Shown piece by piece: positions 801-49,410 of a DNA stretch of 64,000 nucleotides (its first letter is position 1; the number at the start of each line of letters is the position of its first letter). The position numbers and the translations under genes are program-made. The stretch is taken from NCBI GenBank assembly GCA_963677625.2, contig CAXXSW010000003.1, forward strand, positions 25,594 through 89,593, given 5' to 3'. The stretch is from Vallitaleaceae bacterium (GTDB taxonomy: Bacteria > Bacillota > Clostridia > Lachnospirales > Vallitaleaceae). The notes beneath the pieces were generated by a model. The model saw only the letters and a program-made list of their open reading frames with translations. It was not told where the DNA came from and made no database searches.

Positions 801-1178
801 CCTTTCCTAAAAATAATTATTACCATAGTTAACATACTCTATAGCTTATGTCCATCTCCCAAATAAGTCAGTAAAAGCAAAGTAAGCAAAACAGACCTAT
901 GAAATTTCATAAGTCATCCCATCAAGGGCTAGATTAGCCTGATTAAACTAAGCTTCTATACGTTCGTATATGTCTTCTTATTCAGTTATTCATTGTTATA
1001 AGTAAGTTCAAATTCAGTCTAAGAAAGTATGATTTGCTGTGAGGGAATGTGAAAGAATTGTCAAATTATAGCATTTGAATGATTGTTAAATTATAGGCAA
1101 TCCCTTGTAAGCACCTATACATAAATTATAGTCCTCTTATGTCGTGTATGCAACTTTTTTTGTCAAAAAATACACAAG

Positions 1179-1242
1179 TGAAGGTTTTCTTGTAGGTGTC
1201 ATGTCGGTCTTTTGGATATGATGCTGGAATAGAGAACTTTCC
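1179..1242. repeat. Nested palindromic repeat element, copy 1 (64 bp)
   Basis: 57/64 identical to 11811-11874; outer arms GGAAAGTT-like/AACTTTCC, inner 10-bp stem with 9-nt loop. Confidence 0.85.
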
Positions 1243-1256
1243 TAAAATATAAGAAA

Positions 1257-1290
1257 GACCCCATACCGGCTTAAAAGCCACTACAGAGTC
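1257..1290 (-). terminator. Intrinsic terminator of the helD-DUF4330 operon
   Basis: Minus strand GACTCT-GTA-GTGGCTTTTAAGCC-GGTAT-GGGGTC followed by TTTCTTATATT, 14 nt after the stop at 1304. Confidence 0.55.
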
Positions 1291-10654: not shown

Positions 10655-11785
10655 ATGCATATTCTCTTTATTGAACCTTTCTACAGCGGTTCTCATAAAG
10701 CTTGGTTAGATCACTTAATTGCACATTCAAGTCATCAGATACATGCCTTGACCATGGATGGCAAATCTTGGAAGTGGCGTATGTATGGTGCTTCCCTTAC
10801 CATGTCTCAGGAACTTATAAAAATACATCAAGAGTTTGATCTTATTATCGTTAATGACATGCTGGATTTCTCCACCTTTATAGCTTTATCAAGAGATCAG
10901 CTTACAAGGCTTGGTAATCCAAAACTTGCTGTCTATTTTCATGAAAATCAATTAGCTTATCCTTGGAGAGAGGCTGGTGATGATATAAGAAAAAATAGAG
11001 ATGTCCATTATGGTATGATGAATTATACTTCTGCTCTTTGTGCTGATTATGTCATATTTAATTCTAAACATAACCGTGACACATTCTTTCTAGAGCTAAA
11101 AAATCTCCTTAATAAAATGCCTGATTATAAACACACAAATTCTCTGGAATCTATTGCTGAAAAAACAAGTATATTACCTATAGGTCTTGAAACACCAAGC
11201 CCCTTGTCAGGCAAAGATTTAAGTGATTTTATGATGAGATATAATATAAAGCCTAATCATTCACCAATCATCCTTTGGAATCACCGCCTTGACCATGACA
11301 AAAATCCACGAGGTTTTTTGGAGATGCTTATAGGAGTCAAGAAAAAAGGTTTTTCTTTTTCACTAGTTTTTCTGGGTCAAATGAACAACCGAAATCTTGA
11401 CCATTATGAACATTTATTTCAAGAACTCCAGGAAGAAACCCTAGCCCTTGGCTATGTCAGCAGACAAGACTATCTAGGTTTTCTAACTATTTCAGATATA
11501 CTTCCTGTTACCTCCTATCACGATTTTTTTGGCATTAGTGTTATGGAGGCCATTGCCTATGGTTGCAAACCATTGCTTCCAAAGAGACTAACCTATCCTG
11601 ATCTATATGATTCCGATAAAAACCCTGAAATCTTTTATGATAATGAAACGGAACTAGAAGAAAAACTACTTAATACCATAAAAGTAACAAGCCCAGAAAA
11701 AAAATATATTCAATTAACAAAACCATATTGGTGGCCAAAAATAATCACCCAATATGACATCTGTTTTAAGTCCATGGGCAAGTGA
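10655..11785 (+). CDS. DUF3524 + GT-B glycosyltransferase, GTDC1/QTMAN (tRNA-queuosine mannosyltransferase)-like
   Basis: EPFYSGSHKAW, WKWRM, YFHENQLAYP, ADYVIFNS, LWNHRLDHDKNP, HDFFGISVMEA; start moved to ATG 10655 (AGGAGG RBS). Confidence 0.85.
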   Translation: MHILFIEPFYSGSHKAWLDHLIAHSSHQIHALTMDGKSWKWRMYGASLTMSQELIKIHQEFDLIIVNDMLDFSTFIALSRDQLTRLGNPKLAVYFHENQLAYPWREAGDDIRKNRDVHYGMMNYTSALCADYVIFNSKHNRDTFFLELKNLLNKMPDYKHTNSLESIAEKTSILPIGLETPSPLSGKDLSDFMMRYNIKPNHSPIILWNHRLDHDKNPRGFLEMLIGVKKKGFSFSLVFLGQMNNRNLDHYEHLFQELQEETLALGYVSRQDYLGFLTISDILPVTSYHDFFGISVMEAIAYGCKPLLPKRLTYPDLYDSDKNPEIFYDNETELEEKLLNTIKVTSPEKKYIQLTKPYWWPKIITQYDICFKSMGK

Positions 11786-11810
11786 TTTAATATTGATTTA
11801 GTTTTCGGTG

Positions 11811-11874
11811 GGAAAGTTTCCTTGTAGGCATCATGTCGGTCTTTTAGATATGATGCTGGAATAAAGAACTTTCC
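11811..11874. repeat. Nested palindromic repeat element, copy 2 (64 bp)
   Basis: GGAAAGTTTCCTTGTAG-GCATCATGTC-GGTCTTTTA-GATATGATGC-TGGAATAAAGAACTTTCC; 57/64 identity with copy 1. Confidence 0.85.
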
Positions 11875-11886
11875 TATAGAATAAGA

Positions 11887-11912
11887 CAAGAGCCACCAAA
11901 TGGTGGCTCTTG
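11887..11912. terminator. Intrinsic terminator between convergent DUF3524 gene and ald
   Basis: Perfect 11-bp stem CAAGAGCCACC/GGTGGCTCTTG, 4-nt loop, minus-strand tail TCTTATTCT. Confidence 0.8.
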
Positions 11913-11985: not shown

Positions 11986-13101
11986 CTAAAGTAATTCTTC
12001 TGGTGATTTATACTCGACACCTAGGTCATCAGCTACATGTTTATATGTACAATATCCTTTGTATGTGTTAAGGCCAAGACGTAAATCCTTGTTTTCAAGC
12101 ATAGCTTCTACAGGACCCTTGTTAGCAATATCAAGAAGATACTTAAGGGTTACACCAGTAAGTGCATATGTTGAAGTCCTTGGAACTGCTCCTGGCATGT
12201 TGGCAACGGAGTAGTGTATAACACCGTGTTTTTCATAACATGGATTATCATGAGTTGTGACACGGTCTATTGTCTCAATGGATCCACCTTGATCTATGGC
12301 AACATCAACAACCACAGCCCCTGGTTTCATTGTTTTAACCATTTCCTCAGTTACAAGATGAGGTGCTTTAGCTCCTGGTATAAGAACTGCACCGATAAGT
12401 AAATCTGCTTTTCTAACAGACTCTGCAATATTAAATTCATTAGAATATAGGGTCTCAACACGACCTTGGAAAATGTCGTCAAGATATCCAAGACGCTTGG
12501 CACTAATGTCAAGCATGGTCACCCTTGCACCAAGTCCAACCGCCATTTTTGCGGCATTGATACCAACAATACCACCACCGATAATAACTACATTAGCAGG
12601 TGGCACACCTGGAACACCACCTAAAAGCACACCCATACCACCATTATATTTTTGAAGTAGGTTTGCTCCAACTTGAGTGGACATCCGTCCGGCCACTTCA
12701 CTCATTGGATGAAGAAGAGGAAGGGAATGATCAGGAAGCTGAACTGTTTCATAAGCGATACCGGTTACTTTTCTCTCCATTAAAGCCTGTGTTAATTCAA
12801 GGTTAGCAGCCAAATGGAGGTAGGTATATAAGGTTTGGCCTTCTTTAAATAAGTCATATTCCTGTGGCAATGGTTCTTTGACCTTAACGATAGTATCAGC
12901 TTTTGAAAAAACATCAAGATTAGATTCAAGAATTATAGCGCCTGCTGCTTGATATTCTTCGTTAGTTATACCGCTGCCAAGGCCCGCATTATCTTCAATA
13001 TACACAGTATGTCCAGCCTTAACTAAAGCGCTTGCACCTGCAGGAGTTAATGCAACACGGTTTTCATTGTTCTTAATCTCTTTTGGTACTCCAATAATCA
13101 T
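11986..13101 (-). CDS. ald: Alanine dehydrogenase
   Basis: [70 protein letters not shown]. Confidence 0.97.
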
Positions 13102-32566: not shown

Positions 32567-34147
32567 TTATTCAAGTCTCTCAAAAAGTGGTTTTACAGCT
32601 TCCAGTTTTCTGCCAAAATCAGGCTCAATAATCTGCCAGCTTGAATTAAAACCTAACAAGACTTCTAACTTCTCGGATGAAAAGGGTATAAAAGGCTTAA
32701 GAATTTGGGCCAGATTAATAATTAGGTAAATACAGCCTGCAATCGTATTGTCTGCAATATCCCTTTCATTTTTTATAGTAATCCAAGGCTTGTTTTCATC
32801 AAAATATTTATTAGCAAAACGCACTAATTCAAAAGCTTCTTGAATACCTGTCTTTACATTACCGACTTCTATTGCTTTACCCGTTTTTTCATAAGTTACT
32901 TCTATCTTTCTGGTCAATGCTGGGTTTAGGTCTCCTCGTGGAACTTCTGACTTATAGTATCTCTCTACAAACTTTAAGACCCTATTAACAAAGTTGCCAT
33001 ATCCACCTAAAAGTTCACTATTATTAGCATATTTTAATTCCCTAGATGAAAAATCCGAATCTCGTCGTTGAGGATATATGGTTGTCAAGTAATAACGGAT
33101 GGTATCCGGATTATAGCTTTCAATAAGGTCATTGACCCAAAGTGCCCAATCATTACTAGTAGAAATCTTGCTACCTTCCAAGGTCAAATGTTCACTGGAT
33201 ACAATGACATGTGGCTGAGAATCATAAGCTCCGTGAGCTTTCAATAATGATGGAAGAATAATGGTATGAAATGGAATATTGTCCTTTCCATGAACAAAAT
33301 AACGTTTTGCTTCACCTGACCAATAATCTTTCCAGTCAAGTCCGACCCTATCACAATGTAACTTGTTCCCTGATAGGTATCCAAGAACATTCTCCGCCCA
33401 TATATATATCTTTTTCTGGTCATATCCTTCTTTAGGTACATCAATTCCCCAATCAAGATTTCTAGTAATGGCCCTATCTCTTAGACCATCATCCAAATAT
33501 CTCTTAGTAAAATCCAGGGCATTTTTTCTCCAATAAACCGCTTTTTCAAGTAAGTGGCGAATGTGTTTATCCAGTTTACTAATGGTCAGATACAAGTGCT
33601 TTTCCTGTATGAATTCTGGTTGGCTGTGGCATTCTCTACATCTTGGTTCAATGAGGTCATTTCCTTGAAGGACTTCATGACAATGATCACACTGTTCTCC
33701 TTTTGTTACTCCATTACAATGGGGACAAGTACCTTCCAATAAACGATCAGCCAAAAACTTTTGACAACTTGGACAATATGCCTGCGGCTCCTCTTTCTCA
33801 ACAATATACGGACTTTCATAGAGTTTCCTATGGAAGTCCCTGACAAAAGATTTATGACTATCACTAGAAGTCTTCCCATAATGATCATAAGAGAAACCTA
33901 AATAATCGAATCCTTTTACAAACTCCTCATGATACCTATCACTAATGGCTTCTGGTGATTCTCCTGTCTTTTTGGCCTTGATTGTGATAGGTGTCCCATG
34001 ACAATCACTTCCAGAGATATAGGATACCTCTTCACCTCTCTGTCTGTAGTATCTAGCTATGATATCACCAGGTAATAAACCAGCAACATGCCCAATATGC
34101 AAGGATCCATTAGCATAAACCCAGGCACCTCCAACTAAAATTTTCAT
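32567..34147 (-). CDS. metG: Methionine--tRNA ligase, short MetRS2-type form
   Basis: GGAWVYANGSLHIGH, GSDCHGTP, Zn knuckle with four CxxC, GKDNIPFH, KISTS; no C-terminal tRNA-binding domain. Confidence 0.95.
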   Translation of the reverse strand: MKILVGGAWVYANGSLHIGHVAGLLPGDIIARYYRQRGEEVSYISGSDCHGTPITIKAKKTGESPEAISDRYHEEFVKGFDYLGFSYDHYGKTSSDSHKSFVRDFHRKLYESPYIVEKEEPQAYCPSCQKFLADRLLEGTCPHCNGVTKGEQCDHCHEVLQGNDLIEPRCRECHSQPEFIQEKHLYLTISKLDKHIRHLLEKAVYWRKNALDFTKRYLDDGLRDRAITRNLDWGIDVPKEGYDQKKIYIWAENVLGYLSGNKLHCDRVGLDWKDYWSGEAKRYFVHGKDNIPFHTIILPSLLKAHGAYDSQPHVIVSSEHLTLEGSKISTSNDWALWVNDLIESYNPDTIRYYLTTIYPQRRDSDFSSRELKYANNSELLGGYGNFVNRVLKFVERYYKSEVPRGDLNPALTRKIEVTYEKTGKAIEVGNVKTGIQEAFELVRFANKYFDENKPWITIKNERDIADNTIAGCIYLIINLAQILKPFIPFSSEKLEVLLGFNSSWQIIEPDFGRKLEAVKPLFERLE

Positions 34148-34271
34148 CTTTTTTCCTCCTTGTTAGTATTATATCCTCAGACCATGAAAATAGGGTTACC
34201 ATGGTAGCTATTACATTCACTCACATGAAAAATAGTTCTTTCGCCTCGTTCGTTTTACGCTTGTTGCGCTT

Positions 34272-34334
34272 GGAAAGTTTCCTTGACATTTTATGAGATG
34301 TTTCTACTCATAAAATTCAAATAGAGAACTTTCC
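34272..34334. repeat. Nested palindromic repeat element, copy 3 (63 bp) inside the metG leader
   Basis: Left arm GGAAAGTTTCCTTG identical to copy 2, right arm AATAGAGAACTTTCC identical to copy 1; different inner 10-bp stem ATTTTATGAG/CTCATAAAAT with 9-nt loop. Confidence 0.8.
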
Positions 34335-34337
34335 TAT

Positions 34338-34632
34338 AAATAAAAAACTCCCGTCTCTAGAACAAAGTTCTAAAGGACGAGAGTTATATTCGCGGTACCA
34401 CCTTTATTTATTCGTATATCACTACACGAACCTCTTCGAGTACGCAGGAAACCTGTTATACCCTATCGCTATAACGGGCGAGACCCGTGGTAGCCTAAAA
34501 CATAAGTTCTCGGTACCCGACTCCAAGGCCATTTTCACTCTAATAAACATTATCTGCTTTCACCATATACAGACTCTCTGAGAATGTTGCCTAAAGTTAC
34601 TTTCCTTTTCACAGTCTTTATTGAATGTAAAA
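34338..34632 (-). ncRNA. T-box riboswitch, Met (AUG) specifier
   Basis: Stem I with AGUA, AGAGA and GGUG motifs; specifier GAAAAUGG (AUG at 34532-34530); T-box AAAGGUGGUACCGCG at ~34391-34405; terminator 34346-34385 with U tract. Confidence 0.95.
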
Positions 34633-44778: not shown

Positions 44779-45828
44779 ATGTTTTCTACAAAAAAAGGTA
44801 ATCTATTCGCATTATTTTTCGTCATACATTTTTTAGCAGGTAACCTGGTCCTAGCTCTTCTATTAGCAAACTTTCCAACATCAACTAGCGTTCTACCAGC
44901 TATTGGATTGACTCAAATCCTCTTGGTCTTCATGCCATCCTTTTATCATCGTTTATTATTTAGGACACCCATAAAGTCAACTTTTCGTCTTTACAAGACT
45001 AATCCCCTAAATTTTTTACTCAGCGCATTACTGGCCTTGACATCCATACCACTTGTCATGTTAGTCAATCTCATCAGTCAATTTATGTTTAAGCCTGCCC
45101 TAGATGAAACACTATCTAATATAGGTAACGAGAATTATTTGTTAGCTATTCTAGTTATAGCTGTTTTTCCTGGAATTTTCGAAGAGCTTATCTCTAGAGG
45201 TATTATTCTTTCACACTATAGAAACCATAAGATACTTGTAACTTCAACTTTTAGTGGTTTTTTCTTTGGTATGATGCATATGAATATGAACCAATTTATG
45301 TATGCTTTTGTCATCGGTTTTCTTCTAAGCATTGTGGTTCACATTACCGGTTCAATATTTACCAGTATGATCATGCACTTTATTATCAACGCAACCAACC
45401 TATCACTAGCTTATTTGGCATCTAGTGATCTCTTTTCCAATTTACCCGGTTACGATGAACAGCAAGTCATGATGGAACAATTAGACCATTCCCAATTACT
45501 CCTCCAGTCACTTGGACTTGTTATCTTTCTGTTAATCGTCTCACTACCATTTTTTCTTGGAATACTTTTTATCATGATTATGGTTAACGATAAATGGGAC
45601 CTATTAAAAGCCAACGCCTTATCTTATGAGTTTTTCCAAAATGAACTACCACTGGCTACAAACCAAGTCATGGATGATGAACTACCACTAGCTACAGACC
45701 AAATCATGGATATGGAAATCCCAACTGCAACCCCACCCAAGGAAAGAATTCTAACGGTTCCAATAGCCATAACTGTCATAATCTTTATTGCTGTAGCTGT
45801 ATTAACTGAGATTTTACCTACTCTATAG
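44779..45828 (+). CDS. CPBP-family intramembrane glutamic endopeptidase (CAAX protease/Abi)
   Basis: PGIFEELISRG (EExxxR), FFGMMHMN (FxxxH), HFIINA (HxxxN). Confidence 0.92.
   Translation: MFSTKKGNLFALFFVIHFLAGNLVLALLLANFPTSTSVLPAIGLTQILLVFMPSFYHRLLFRTPIKSTFRLYKTNPLNFLLSALLALTSIPLVMLVNLISQFMFKPALDETLSNIGNENYLLAILVIAVFPGIFEELISRGIILSHYRNHKILVTSTFSGFFFGMMHMNMNQFMYAFVIGFLLSIVVHITGSIFTSMIMHFIINATNLSLAYLASSDLFSNLPGYDEQQVMMEQLDHSQLLLQSLGLVIFLLIVSLPFFLGILFIMIMVNDKWDLLKANALSYEFFQNELPLATNQVMDDELPLATDQIMDMEIPTATPPKERILTVPIAITVIIFIAVAVLTEILPTL
45643..45732 (+). repeat. In-frame 36-bp tandem repeat (~2.5 copies)
   Basis: ELPLATNQVMDD / ELPLATDQIMDM / EIPTAT; units at 45643-45678, 45679-45714 and partial 45715-45732. 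Confidence 0.85.
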
Positions 45829-49166: not shown

Positions 49167-49340
49167 ATGTTACCTAAAGACCCAATTATGCTTTTAAGCA
49201 CCGTTAACATGAAGCTACGTGACCACCATAAGACTTTGGATGACCTATGCAAAAGTCACAATATTTCTAGGAAAGACTTGGAAACAAAACTAGCTAAAGT
49301 AGACTATTTTTATGATTCGAAACATAACCAATTCAAATAG
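49167..49340 (+). CDS. DUF4250 family small protein (57 aa, below ORF-track cutoff)
   Basis: Own translation MLPKDPIMLLSTVNMKLRDHHKTLDDLCKSHNISRKDLETKLAKVDYFYDSKHNQFK; AAGGAGGG RBS. Confidence 0.85.
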   Translation: MLPKDPIMLLSTVNMKLRDHHKTLDDLCKSHNISRKDLETKLAKVDYFYDSKHNQFK

Positions 49341-49362
49341 AAAACTTTCCTATAGAACAAGA
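49331..49362. repeat. Right-arm half copy of the palindromic repeat family
   Basis: ATTCAAATAGAAAACTTTCCTATAGAACAAGA matches copy 3 (ATTCAAATAGAGAACTTTCCTATA) and copy 2 flank (CTTTCCTATAGAATAAGA). Confidence 0.6.
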
Positions 49363-49364
49363 TC

Positions 49365-49410
49365 AAAGGAGTGATTCCCTAGCATATAAACTTAGGAATG
49401 ACTCCTTTTT
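49365..49410. terminator. Bidirectional terminator between DUF4250 gene and ilvD
   Basis: AAAGGAGTGATTCCCTAG...TTAGGAATGACTCCTTTTT hairpin with T-rich tails on both strands. Confidence 0.7.

What the first reader, a model, noticed from the sequence alone, without database searches (positions are those of the whole stretch)
1179..1242. Dispersed 64-bp nested palindrome family that always abuts intrinsic terminators (copies 1 and 2)
Seen: 1179-1242 and 11811-11874 are 57/64 identical. Each has outer arms (GGAAAGTT/AACTTTCC), then GTAG, then a 10-bp stem with a 9-nt loop. In all four occurrences (also 34272 and 49331) the minus strand reads terminator hairpin, T-rich tail, then (A/T)TAGGAAAGTT, in the same orientation. 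The stem differences between copies give G-T wobbles on the plus strand but A-C mismatches on the minus strand, which points to strand-specific folding. Established: REPs mobilised by HUH/Y1 RAYT transposases start with GTAG before a hairpin and act as single strands. Inference: a REP/MITE-like element that targets terminator ends, or a structured RNA family. No cognate transposase is in the window.
Basis: partly seen in the sequence, partly recalled or inferred. Interest (0 to 1): 0.7.

Follow-up and report, generated by a model that had tools for sequence, protein, structure and literature searches.

The report
Hairpin repeats pasted behind transcription terminators
The 64-bp palindrome belongs to a modular, hairpin-rich repeat family found only in Vallitaleaceae clostridia (about 95 sites in this genome). 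It almost always sits right behind a gene's terminator hairpin, on one replication strand, and probably spreads as single-stranded DNA by an enzyme not yet identified.

Summary
The two 64-nt copies are 57/64 identical. All four window copies lie, in one orientation, 13-14 nt after a terminator hairpin.

Genome-wide there are about 94 loci built from modules:
- a "head" hairpin with arms AGGAAAGTT/AACTTTCCT, bare or carrying a 10-bp/9-nt-loop inner hairpin of interchangeable sequence;
- a "tail", a three-way junction (GAACAA, hp1, AAC, hp2, TTTGTTCT) that ends like a small terminator.

Units stack into arrays. A covariance model finds tails in 24 of 35 Vallitaleaceae genomes, each species with its own stem sequences. 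A tail pattern found none in other families of the order.

The closest species keeps the same terminators without the element. A metagenome contig carries a unit inside a transposase gene. 92 of 94 loci point with replication, against 83% of genes. IS200 copies in relatives occupy the same kind of site.

Best reading: a non-autonomous element pasted as single-stranded DNA next to terminator hairpins. The mobilising enzyme is unidentified. The REP hallmarks (GTAG, a flanked RAYT gene) are not met, and Y1 genes track the repeats only weakly. Stems are conserved beyond neutral expectation, so a host-level role is not excluded. I class it as a new variant of a known kind.

The parts
1184..1243 (-). 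Copy 1: head module, minor variant A2, positions 1-60 of 66. The far arm is degraded and there is no tail.
   Evidence: Module map, (C3:26777-26836). Sequence. Weak fold.
1244..1290 (-). T-rich leader (1244-1256) and terminator hairpin (1257-1290) of the upstream minus-strand gene 1304-1804.
   Evidence: Fold z = -4.5. ORF list.
11811..11875 (-). Copy 2: complete A2 head, with outer arms AGGAAAGTT/AACTTTCC and inner stem GCATCATATC/GACATGATGC around a 9-nt loop. The 10 nt at 11801-11810 (CACCGAAAAC) are the start of a tail that then breaks off.
11876..11912 (-). T-rich leader and terminator hairpin of the alanine dehydrogenase gene (11986-13101, minus strand). The hairpin is conserved in the closest species, G004, which lacks the element at this site.
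   Evidence: Fold z = -6.2. G004 ortholog.
34240..34335 (-). Copy 3: major-variant head A1 (34271-34335) plus a degenerate B tail (34240-34270) whose terminator-like hairpin is broken. It lies inside the leader of the downstream gene, whose ATG is near 34146.
   Evidence: No tail hit with model R1 in the window.
34336..34621 (-). T-box leader (34370-34621), with its terminator hairpin (34346-34385) and T tract directly abutting copy 3.
   Evidence: Rfam RF00230, 125.9 bits. Fold.
49330..49351 (-). Copy 4: truncated head. Only the first 22 nt (AGGAAAGTTTTCTATTTGAATT) remain.
49352..49408 (-). T-rich leader and long terminator hairpin (49365-49408) preceding copy 4.
   Evidence: Fold z = -3.7.

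Best explanation
The palindrome is the 'head' module of a non-autonomous, modular repeat family confined to the family Vallitaleaceae. A full unit of about 90-110 nt, read on the strand of the upstream gene, has four parts. First comes a T-rich leader (..TTCTAT or ..TTTACT). Second is a head hairpin with purine-rich arm AGGAAAGT. and complementary arm .ACTTTCCT, either bare (module D) or enclosing a 10-bp/9-nt-loop hairpin (A1, A2). Third is a short linker. Fourth is a tail (B, B2 or C) folding as a three-way junction: GAACAA, hairpin 1, A(A)C, hairpin 2, (C)TTTGTTCT. I propose that units are copied or pasted as single-stranded DNA onto the 3' side of intrinsic-terminator hairpins exposed on the lagging-strand template. 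This follows the logic of IS200/IS605 'peel and paste' elements: hairpins at both ends, a fixed orientation, no target duplication and a T-rich target next to a hairpin. Because each unit ends in its own hairpin plus T tract, it rebuilds a target, which explains the tandem arrays. Palindrome collapse and 3' deletions then erode copies, while selection keeps the native terminator. Shown: the anatomy, the terminator adjacency, the orientation and replication bias, the lineage distribution, empty sites, and one insertion into a gene. Inferred: the single-strand intermediate and hairpin recognition. Unknown: the enzyme.
For: - Anatomy and copy number: 175 module hits in 94 loci, including arrays up to 550 nt.
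- Terminator adjacency: all 64 loci that start with a head have a unique hairpin followed by a 13-14 nt T-rich tract immediately upstream. Upstream folding energy has a median of -17.7 kcal/mol, and 58/64 flanks reach -9 or lower, against 19% of random intergenic sites.
- Orientation: the upstream gene is on the same strand in 83/94 loci. Between tandem genes, 62 loci are co-oriented and 4 are not.
- Attenuator sites: at least four copies sit behind T-box attenuator terminators. The target is therefore the terminator structure, not the gene end as such.
- Replication bias: 92/94 loci have the sense strand on the leading (G-rich) strand, against 83.2% of genes (p = 6e-6). The same trend appears in the complete genome G046.
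- Empty sites: the closest species, G004, keeps the same terminator hairpins without the element at six loci, and no duplication is seen.
- A true insertion: a 126-nt A2-B2 unit interrupts an rve transposase gene in frame in metagenome contig L082. It is 88-91% identical to copies in this genome although the flanks share no similarity.
- Structure conservation: heads and tails keep their geometry while the stems are replaced in G004, G008, G046 and genus g11. In the tail, 9 of 15 pairs show changes on both sides and 88.7% of cells are paired, against 38-57% when the partners are slid.
- Precedent in the same bacterial family: all 11 IS200-group copies examined with visible ends in relatives, and the degraded copy in this genome, lie directly after a terminator hairpin plus T tract.
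Against: - No enzyme is linked to the repeats. IS200 end hairpins (CCACCCG..CGGGTGG) differ from the repeat hairpins.
- G021 and G042 have 25-46 tail hits but no Y1 gene.
- The RAYT-like Y1+HTH genes are vertically inherited, are not flanked by repeats, and also occur in genera without repeats.
- Copies are not young. Median pairwise identity is 87% for A1-B units and 92% for D-C units.
- Stems differ from the consensus three times less often than unpaired positions (3.5% against 11.1%).
- Orthologous copies shared by G042 and G021 are more conserved than their flanks (97% against 90%). That also fits a host-level function or gene conversion.
- The L082 insertion has no adjacent terminator hairpin and is bounded by a 7-nt direct repeat, so the junction chemistry is unresolved.
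- There are no transcription data and no strain-level polymorphism data.
Confidence: 0.45

Rival explanations
1. The units are a host-maintained structural module at operon ends. They would act in DNA or in read-through RNA, for example as a back-up terminator or insulator, or as a hairpin signal on the lagging-strand template. They would spread and stay uniform through recombination or template switching rather than by a dedicated transposase.
For: Stems are three times more conserved than loops within the genome. Orthologous copies in two species are more conserved than the flanking intergenic DNA. The spacing from the terminator stem to the head is constant. Every tail ends in a hairpin plus T tract. 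The family persists across at least six genera with stems that co-vary. No transposase partner was found. Many copies keep only the terminator-proximal part.
Against: Presence is patchy: five genera have none, and most sites differ between the two closest species. One copy sits inside a transposase gene and several lie in T-box leaders, where a terminator would do harm. Many copies are truncated or collapsed. Only about 94 of the many terminators in the genome carry a unit. The stem conservation can also arise if only intact copies produce daughter copies.
Confidence: 0.2
2. This is a true REP/RAYT-type system: the resident single-copy Y1+HTH proteins (C4:68342-69133 and C10:40530-41192) cut and paste the hairpins.
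For: Both proteins match Y1_Tnp and, weakly, the REP-associated tyrosine transposase model. They resemble TnpA-Y1 subclass 2.1, for which no DNA substrate is known (PMC6006769). Repeats and Y1+HTH genes co-occur in 18 genomes and are both absent in 8 (my tally). The replication bias fits a HUH enzyme.
Against: GTAG is not conserved. The genes are not flanked by the repeats. Six genomes with repeats lack a Y1+HTH gene, and G021 and G042 lack any Y1 gene. Four genomes with Y1+HTH genes have no tail hits. The NCBIfam scores (27.7 and 17.4 bits) fall far below the 80-bit cut-off.
Confidence: 0.15
3. The units are a family of small structured RNAs or cis-acting RNA elements, transcribed by read-through or from their own promoter.
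For: The stems co-vary. In consensus copies the sense strand carries G-T wobble positions. Copy 3 and three other copies lie in T-box leaders that are transcribed when antitermination occurs.
Against: The units lie after efficient-looking terminators. No conserved promoter is present, because the upstream DNA is unique at every locus. There is no Rfam match. Deviations show no strand asymmetry. The hairpin loops are often GCGAAGC-type triloops, which I know as very stable DNA mini-hairpins (own knowledge). The replication-strand bias is not expected for an RNA.
Confidence: 0.08
4. The units are classical MITEs of a DDE insertion sequence, with terminal inverted repeats and a target duplication.
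For: The head arms form an inverted repeat. The L082 insertion is bounded by a 7-nt direct repeat. The family shows a MITE-like copy number and a lineage-restricted spread.
Against: The inverted arms bound only the head, not the whole unit. No duplication is seen at six filled/empty comparisons, and left and right flanks do not match within loci. Strict orientation relative to terminators and to replication is not expected for a DDE MITE. No full-length element with these ends was found in the genome, in 185,579 species genomes or in viral contigs.
Confidence: 0.07

Closest known systems
IS200/IS605-family elements and their transposase-less derivatives (PATEs)
   Same: Hairpins near both ends rather than terminal inverted repeats. 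No target duplication at the sites compared. Insertion in one orientation next to a short T-rich target. Orientation bias with replication. IS200 copies in the same bacterial family occupy the same kind of site behind terminators (mechanism as summarised in PMC7290912).
   Different: The hairpin sequences differ from those of the resident IS200 elements. No cognate TnpA was found, and some genomes with many copies have no Y1 gene at all. Units are modular and form arrays. The tail is a three-way junction, not a single hairpin.
REP/BIME sequences with RAYT (TnpA-REP) transposases
   Same: High-copy intergenic palindromes at the 3' ends of genes. Sequences are species-specific and persist over long periods. 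Mosaic clusters form. Single-copy Y1 genes are present in the genome (PMC3333891, PMC6006769).
   Different: No conserved GTAG guide. No REPtron arrangement, in which repeats flank the Y1 gene. Co-occurrence with Y1 genes is weak. Units are three to five times longer than a REP and abut the terminator at a fixed distance.
Pneumococcal BOX (boxA-B-C) and SPRITE repeats
   Same: Modular build with optional or repeated middle modules (BOX). A terminator-like hairpin plus T-rich tract and enrichment close to gene 3' ends (SPRITE). The mobilising enzyme is unknown. Distribution is restricted to a lineage (PMC3049150).
   Different: No sequence relationship. The pneumococcal repeats mirror gene orientation only weakly (about 61-63% on the leading strand), against 98% here. 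They do not sit at a fixed distance behind a pre-existing terminator.
Bacterial group IIC introns
   Same: Typically found directly downstream of terminator motifs, an inverted repeat followed by Ts (PMC1702495).
   Different: Those are ribozyme retroelements several hundred nt or more in length, with or without a reverse transcriptase gene. The units here are 90-110 nt and show no intron-like Rfam match in the window.

Membership tests
REP / RAYT (REPtron) | Short imperfect palindrome preceded by a conserved GTAG tetranucleotide | tested here: not met
   GTAG occurs only in the A2 variant, read on the window plus strand. A1, D and the variants in G004, G046 and g11 lack it.
REP / RAYT (REPtron) | Cognate Y1 (RAYT) gene flanked by the repeats | tested here: not met
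   The flanks of C4:68342-69133 hold unrelated sequence. Model R1 finds no units directly flanking the Y1+HTH genes in the 12 Y1+HTH loci searched. The only hits are a solo tail behind a neighbouring gene about 900 nt away, a weak hit at the matching place in G004, and one chance-level hit at E = 0.85.
REP / RAYT (REPtron) | Repeat family and RAYT gene co-occur across genomes | tested here: inconclusive
   My tally: 18 genomes have both, 6 have repeats only (G021 and G042 have no Y1 gene at all), 4 have Y1+HTH only, and 8 have neither. The genomes are not phylogenetically independent.
IS200/IS605 PATE | Subterminal hairpins at both ends and no terminal inverted repeats | tested here: met
   The head hairpin lies 6-10 nt from the left junction. 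Hairpin 2 lies 8-9 nt from the right end.
IS200/IS605 PATE | No target-site duplication | tested here: inconclusive
   None is seen at six filled/empty comparisons with G004. However, the junctions lie in T-rich DNA of a different species, and the L082 insertion is bounded by a 7-nt direct repeat.
IS200/IS605 PATE | Orientation bias placing the active strand on the lagging-strand template | tested here: met
   92/94 loci against 83.2% of genes, p = 6e-6.
IS200/IS605 PATE | A full-length element with the same end hairpins and a tnpA gene | tested here: not met
   IS200 ends in G000, G001, G008, G044 and G046 carry CCACC..GGTGG-type hairpins, not head or tail hairpins.
DDE-type MITE | Terminal inverted repeats bounding the whole element, plus a regular target duplication | tested here: not met
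   The inverted arms bound only the head module. Left and right flanks do not match within loci.
Any Rfam RNA family | Match to a curated covariance model | tested here: not met
   At gathering thresholds only the T-box leader matches in the window. In the permissive scan of 34100-34400 nothing reaches a gathering score.

The most novel reading that the evidence does not exclude
A previously unrecognised kind of element recognises intrinsic-terminator hairpins on the lagging-strand template and is moved, or maintained, by an enzyme other than the known Y1 transposases. Alternatively, it is the long-sought DNA substrate of the orphan Y1+HTH (TnpA-Y1 subclass 2.1) proteins. In either case the hairpins are kept under selection for a host-level role at operon ends.
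Probability: 0.25. Interest if true: 0.8.

Novelty: new variant of a known kind. Interest (0 to 1): 0.6.

Why it matters
Small dispersed repeats are common, but few have a defined target. Here the target is a structure, the terminator hairpin plus its T tract, and it is hit with near-perfect orientation and replication-strand rules. IS200 elements of the same bacterial family share this behaviour. That makes terminator hairpins on the lagging-strand template a testable landing pad for single-strand mobile DNA. It also offers a possible substrate for an orphan class of HUH proteins. For annotation, the family explains many odd extra hairpins behind genes and inside T-box leaders in Vallitaleaceae, and it gives a covariance model to mask or track them. 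The unusually strong conservation of the stems raises the question of whether the host has put them to use.

Tried and rejected
- Exact-arm pattern scans of 185,579 species genomes gave nothing or five chance-level singletons in unrelated phyla. The viral-contig scan gave none.
- Rfam found only the T-box leader at gathering thresholds, and nothing reached a gathering score in the permissive scan.
- The search for an autonomous element came up empty. Head-arm-only hits are followed by unrelated sequence. The largest array (C3:170893-171442) has only ordinary metabolic genes around it.
- A REPtron arrangement around the Y1+HTH genes was not found.
- A promoter reading of the head (TTGACA..TAAAAT in copy 3) was dropped by eye: the spacing is wrong and the motif is absent from A2 and D heads.
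- A target-duplication reading of the TTGTTCT found on both sides of units was dropped: left and right copies do not match within loci, and the G004 empty sites lack it.
- An exact-protein look-up for strain-level contigs found nothing.
- The first alignment of all tail types (A1) was too gapped to use, so model R1 was built from the short-type tails only.

Full report
**The observation**

The two 64-nt stretches at 1179-1242 and 11811-11874 are 57/64 identical. The 16-mer AGGAAAGTTYTCTATT occurs with 0-1 mismatch at four places in the window, all on the minus strand. The repeat finder groups them into one family.

On the minus strand each copy is preceded by a stable hairpin (z = -3.7 to -6.2) and a T-rich tract. 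For copy 3 that hairpin is the terminator of a T-box leader (RF00230, 125.9 bits), so the copy lies inside the leader of the downstream gene.

Copies 1 and 2 carry the inner 10-bp stem with a 9-nt loop. Copy 3 has the same arms and geometry with an unrelated inner stem. Copy 4 is a 22-nt stump. The outer arm of copy 1 is degraded.

**Genome-wide anatomy**

The window is C3:25594-89593 of a 4.33-Mb, 36% G+C genome.

The 16-mer has 83 hits at 2 or fewer mismatches. Reading the longer copies shows a modular system, given here on the strand of the upstream gene:
- Heads: A1 (65 nt, the major variant), A2 (66 nt, the variant of the finding) and D (25 nt, a bare hairpin AGGAAAGTCCTCTATAGGACTTTCC).
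- Tails: B (49 nt), B2 (59 nt) and C (67 nt).

Each tail folds as an outer stem (G)AACAA/TTGTT(C) that encloses two hairpins, and it ends ..CTTTGTTCT(TCTAT).

Mapping the modules gives 175 hits in 94 loci. Most are A-B (about 107 nt) or D-C (about 90 nt) units, alone or stacked, up to a 550-nt array. About a dozen further sites keep only the first 16-20 nt of a head.

Decay forms recur:
- heads collapsed to their two arms;
- a 'mini' form in which AGGAAAG is fused to hairpin 2 of the tail;
- 3' truncations at many positions.

The terminator-proximal junction is almost always intact. I attribute this to selection that keeps the native terminator (inference).

**Position rules**

All 64 loci that begin with a head have, immediately upstream, a hairpin of unique sequence and then a 13-14 nt tract, TTTTTTTnTT(c/t)(t/a)(a/c)T. 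The upstream 50 nt fold with a median of -17.7 kcal/mol, and 58/64 reach -9 or lower. Only 19% of random intergenic sites do, with a median of -4.7.

With crude ORF calls, the upstream gene is on the same strand in 83/94 loci. Between tandem genes, 62 loci are co-oriented and 4 are not. Convergent gaps hold 21 loci and divergent gaps 7.

At least four copies follow T-box attenuator terminators. What is recognised is therefore the terminator structure, not the end of a gene.

Using the very strong GC skew to define replichores, 92/94 loci have their sense strand on the leading strand, against 83.2% of genes (p = 6e-6). The complete genome G046 shows the same arrangement.

**Distribution and structure conservation**

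The exact head motif is absent from seven same-genus species and occurs in only three of 35 family genomes. It is absent from all other species genomes scanned.

Comparison with the closest species, G004, showed that G004 has its own version. Its head is AAGAAATTGCTC-taaac-GAGCCAATTTCT. Its tail is GAACAATT-CGCgaaGCG-AAACC-AGCGTCGttaaaCGACGCT-TTTGTTCT.

Genus g11, G008 and G046 have further versions, and so do three metagenome contigs. In every case the single-stranded linkers and the geometry are kept while the stems are replaced. The geometry comprises a head with a 10-bp/9-nt-loop inner hairpin and a three-way-junction tail.

On 13 tails from three genera, 88.7% of cells pair, against 38-57% when the partners are slid. 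Nine of 15 pairs change on both sides.

A covariance model of the tail (R1) finds it in 24 of 35 family genomes. It is present in genera g1, g11, g4, g2, g6 and g8 and absent from g10, g7, g5, g9 and g3. A tail pattern found only single, chance-level hits in the other families of the order (301 genomes searched in all). There is no Rfam match.

**Evidence for insertion**

G004 is syntenic with the window. At six loci it keeps the same terminator hairpin without the G000 element, with no sign of a duplication. One of these is the alanine dehydrogenase terminator next to window copy 2.

At two orthologous sites G004 carries its own family instead. That means either hot spots or old insertions that were later homogenised.

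Metagenome contig L082 holds a 126-nt A2-B2 unit that interrupts an rve/HTH_32 transposase gene in frame. It is bounded by a 7-nt direct repeat and has no terminator hairpin next to it. The unit is 88-91% identical to G000 copies although the flanks share no nucleotide similarity. This points to horizontal spread or to strong constraint.

**The enzyme question**

G000 has two degraded IS200 remnants and two single-copy Y1+HTH genes. They resemble the orphan TnpA-Y1 subclass 2.1 described in PMC6006769.

Three results weaken a direct link to the repeats:
- The Y1+HTH genes are not flanked by the repeats.
- They are vertically inherited, and they also occur in genera that have no tail hits.
- They are missing from six repeat-bearing genomes, and G021 and G042 have no Y1 gene at all.

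The REP/RAYT membership tests therefore fail or remain inconclusive.

One result bears strongly on mechanism. All 11 IS200-group copies examined with visible ends in the relatives G044, G001, G008 and G046 sit directly after a unique terminator hairpin plus T tract, in the sense orientation. So does the degraded copy in G000. Single-strand Y1 transposons of this bacterial family thus use the same landing site, although their end hairpins differ from those of the repeats.

**Signs of constraint**

Copies are not young. Median pairwise identity is 87% for A1-B units and 92% for D-C units, much like the Y1-less genomes G042 (87%) and G021 (78%).

Within G000, stem positions differ from the consensus at 3.5% and unpaired positions at 11.1% (p = 1e-28). 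Three orthologous insertions shared by G042 and G021 are 97% identical against 90% for their flanks (small sample).

This could mean a host-level function or gene conversion. It could also mean simply that only intact copies leave descendants.

**Verdict**

The finding is real. It is the visible tip of a family-wide, modular, hairpin-based repeat system that is tied to intrinsic terminators and to the direction of replication.

The best-supported mechanism (confidence about 0.45) is insertion as single-stranded DNA next to terminator hairpins on the lagging-strand template. Each unit rebuilds a target through its own terminator-like tail. The enzyme is unidentified.

The specific REP/RAYT attribution and the wobble argument do not hold.

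I rate it a new variant of a known kind, with interest 0.6.

Noticed in passing
G044, G001, G008 and G046 loci L091-L099, L102, L103; G000 C2:736700-737470: All 11 IS200-group copies examined with visible ends in relatives, and the degraded copy in G000, lie directly after a unique terminator hairpin plus T tract, in the sense orientation. This suggests terminator-adjacent targeting by Y1 single-strand transposons in this bacterial family.
   Followed up: partly
L082 (metagenome contig Ga0136636_10047825), 1505-1637: A 126-nt A2-B2 unit interrupts an rve/HTH_32 DDE transposase gene in frame. It is bounded by a 7-nt direct repeat (TTCTTGT on the element strand). The repeat is about 90% identical to G000 copies, although the rest of the contig shares no nucleotide similarity with G000.
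   Followed up: partly
G000 C4:68342-69133 (+) and C10:40530-41192 (-), outside the window: Two single-copy Y1 (IS200-like) proteins with a C-terminal helix-turn-helix part. They are vertically inherited in the genus (80-89% identity in G004) and resemble the orphan TnpA-Y1 subclass 2.1, which has no known DNA substrate.
   Followed up: partly
G004 C1:1362331-1362982 and C1:1377721-1378427 (orthologs of window 1162-1247 and 11762-11886): The closest species has a 650-nt insert rich in inverted repeats at the site of window copy 1. It has an extra minus-strand ORF that I took by eye for a TetR-like regulator (not scanned) at the site of copy 2.
   Followed up: no
G042 and G021 loci L107/L133, L114/L131, L123/L134: Orthologous repeat insertions shared by two species are 97% identical (291/300), whereas their flanking intergenic DNA is about 90% identical (255/284).
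   Followed up: partly
window 34370-34621 (-): A T-box leader lies upstream of a gene that another first-stage note on this genome calls metG (not checked here). The repeat lengthens the distance from terminator to ATG, and the terminator-like hairpin of its tail is broken there.
   Followed up: partly
window 45641-45712: A perfect-register 36-nt tandem duplicate, 89% identical, reported by the repeat finder (family D8). Not examined.
   Followed up: no
G000 C7 near 840 kb and C12 near 375 kb: Sharp GC-skew sign changes (about +/-0.18) mark the replication origin and terminus regions on these contigs.
   Followed up: no
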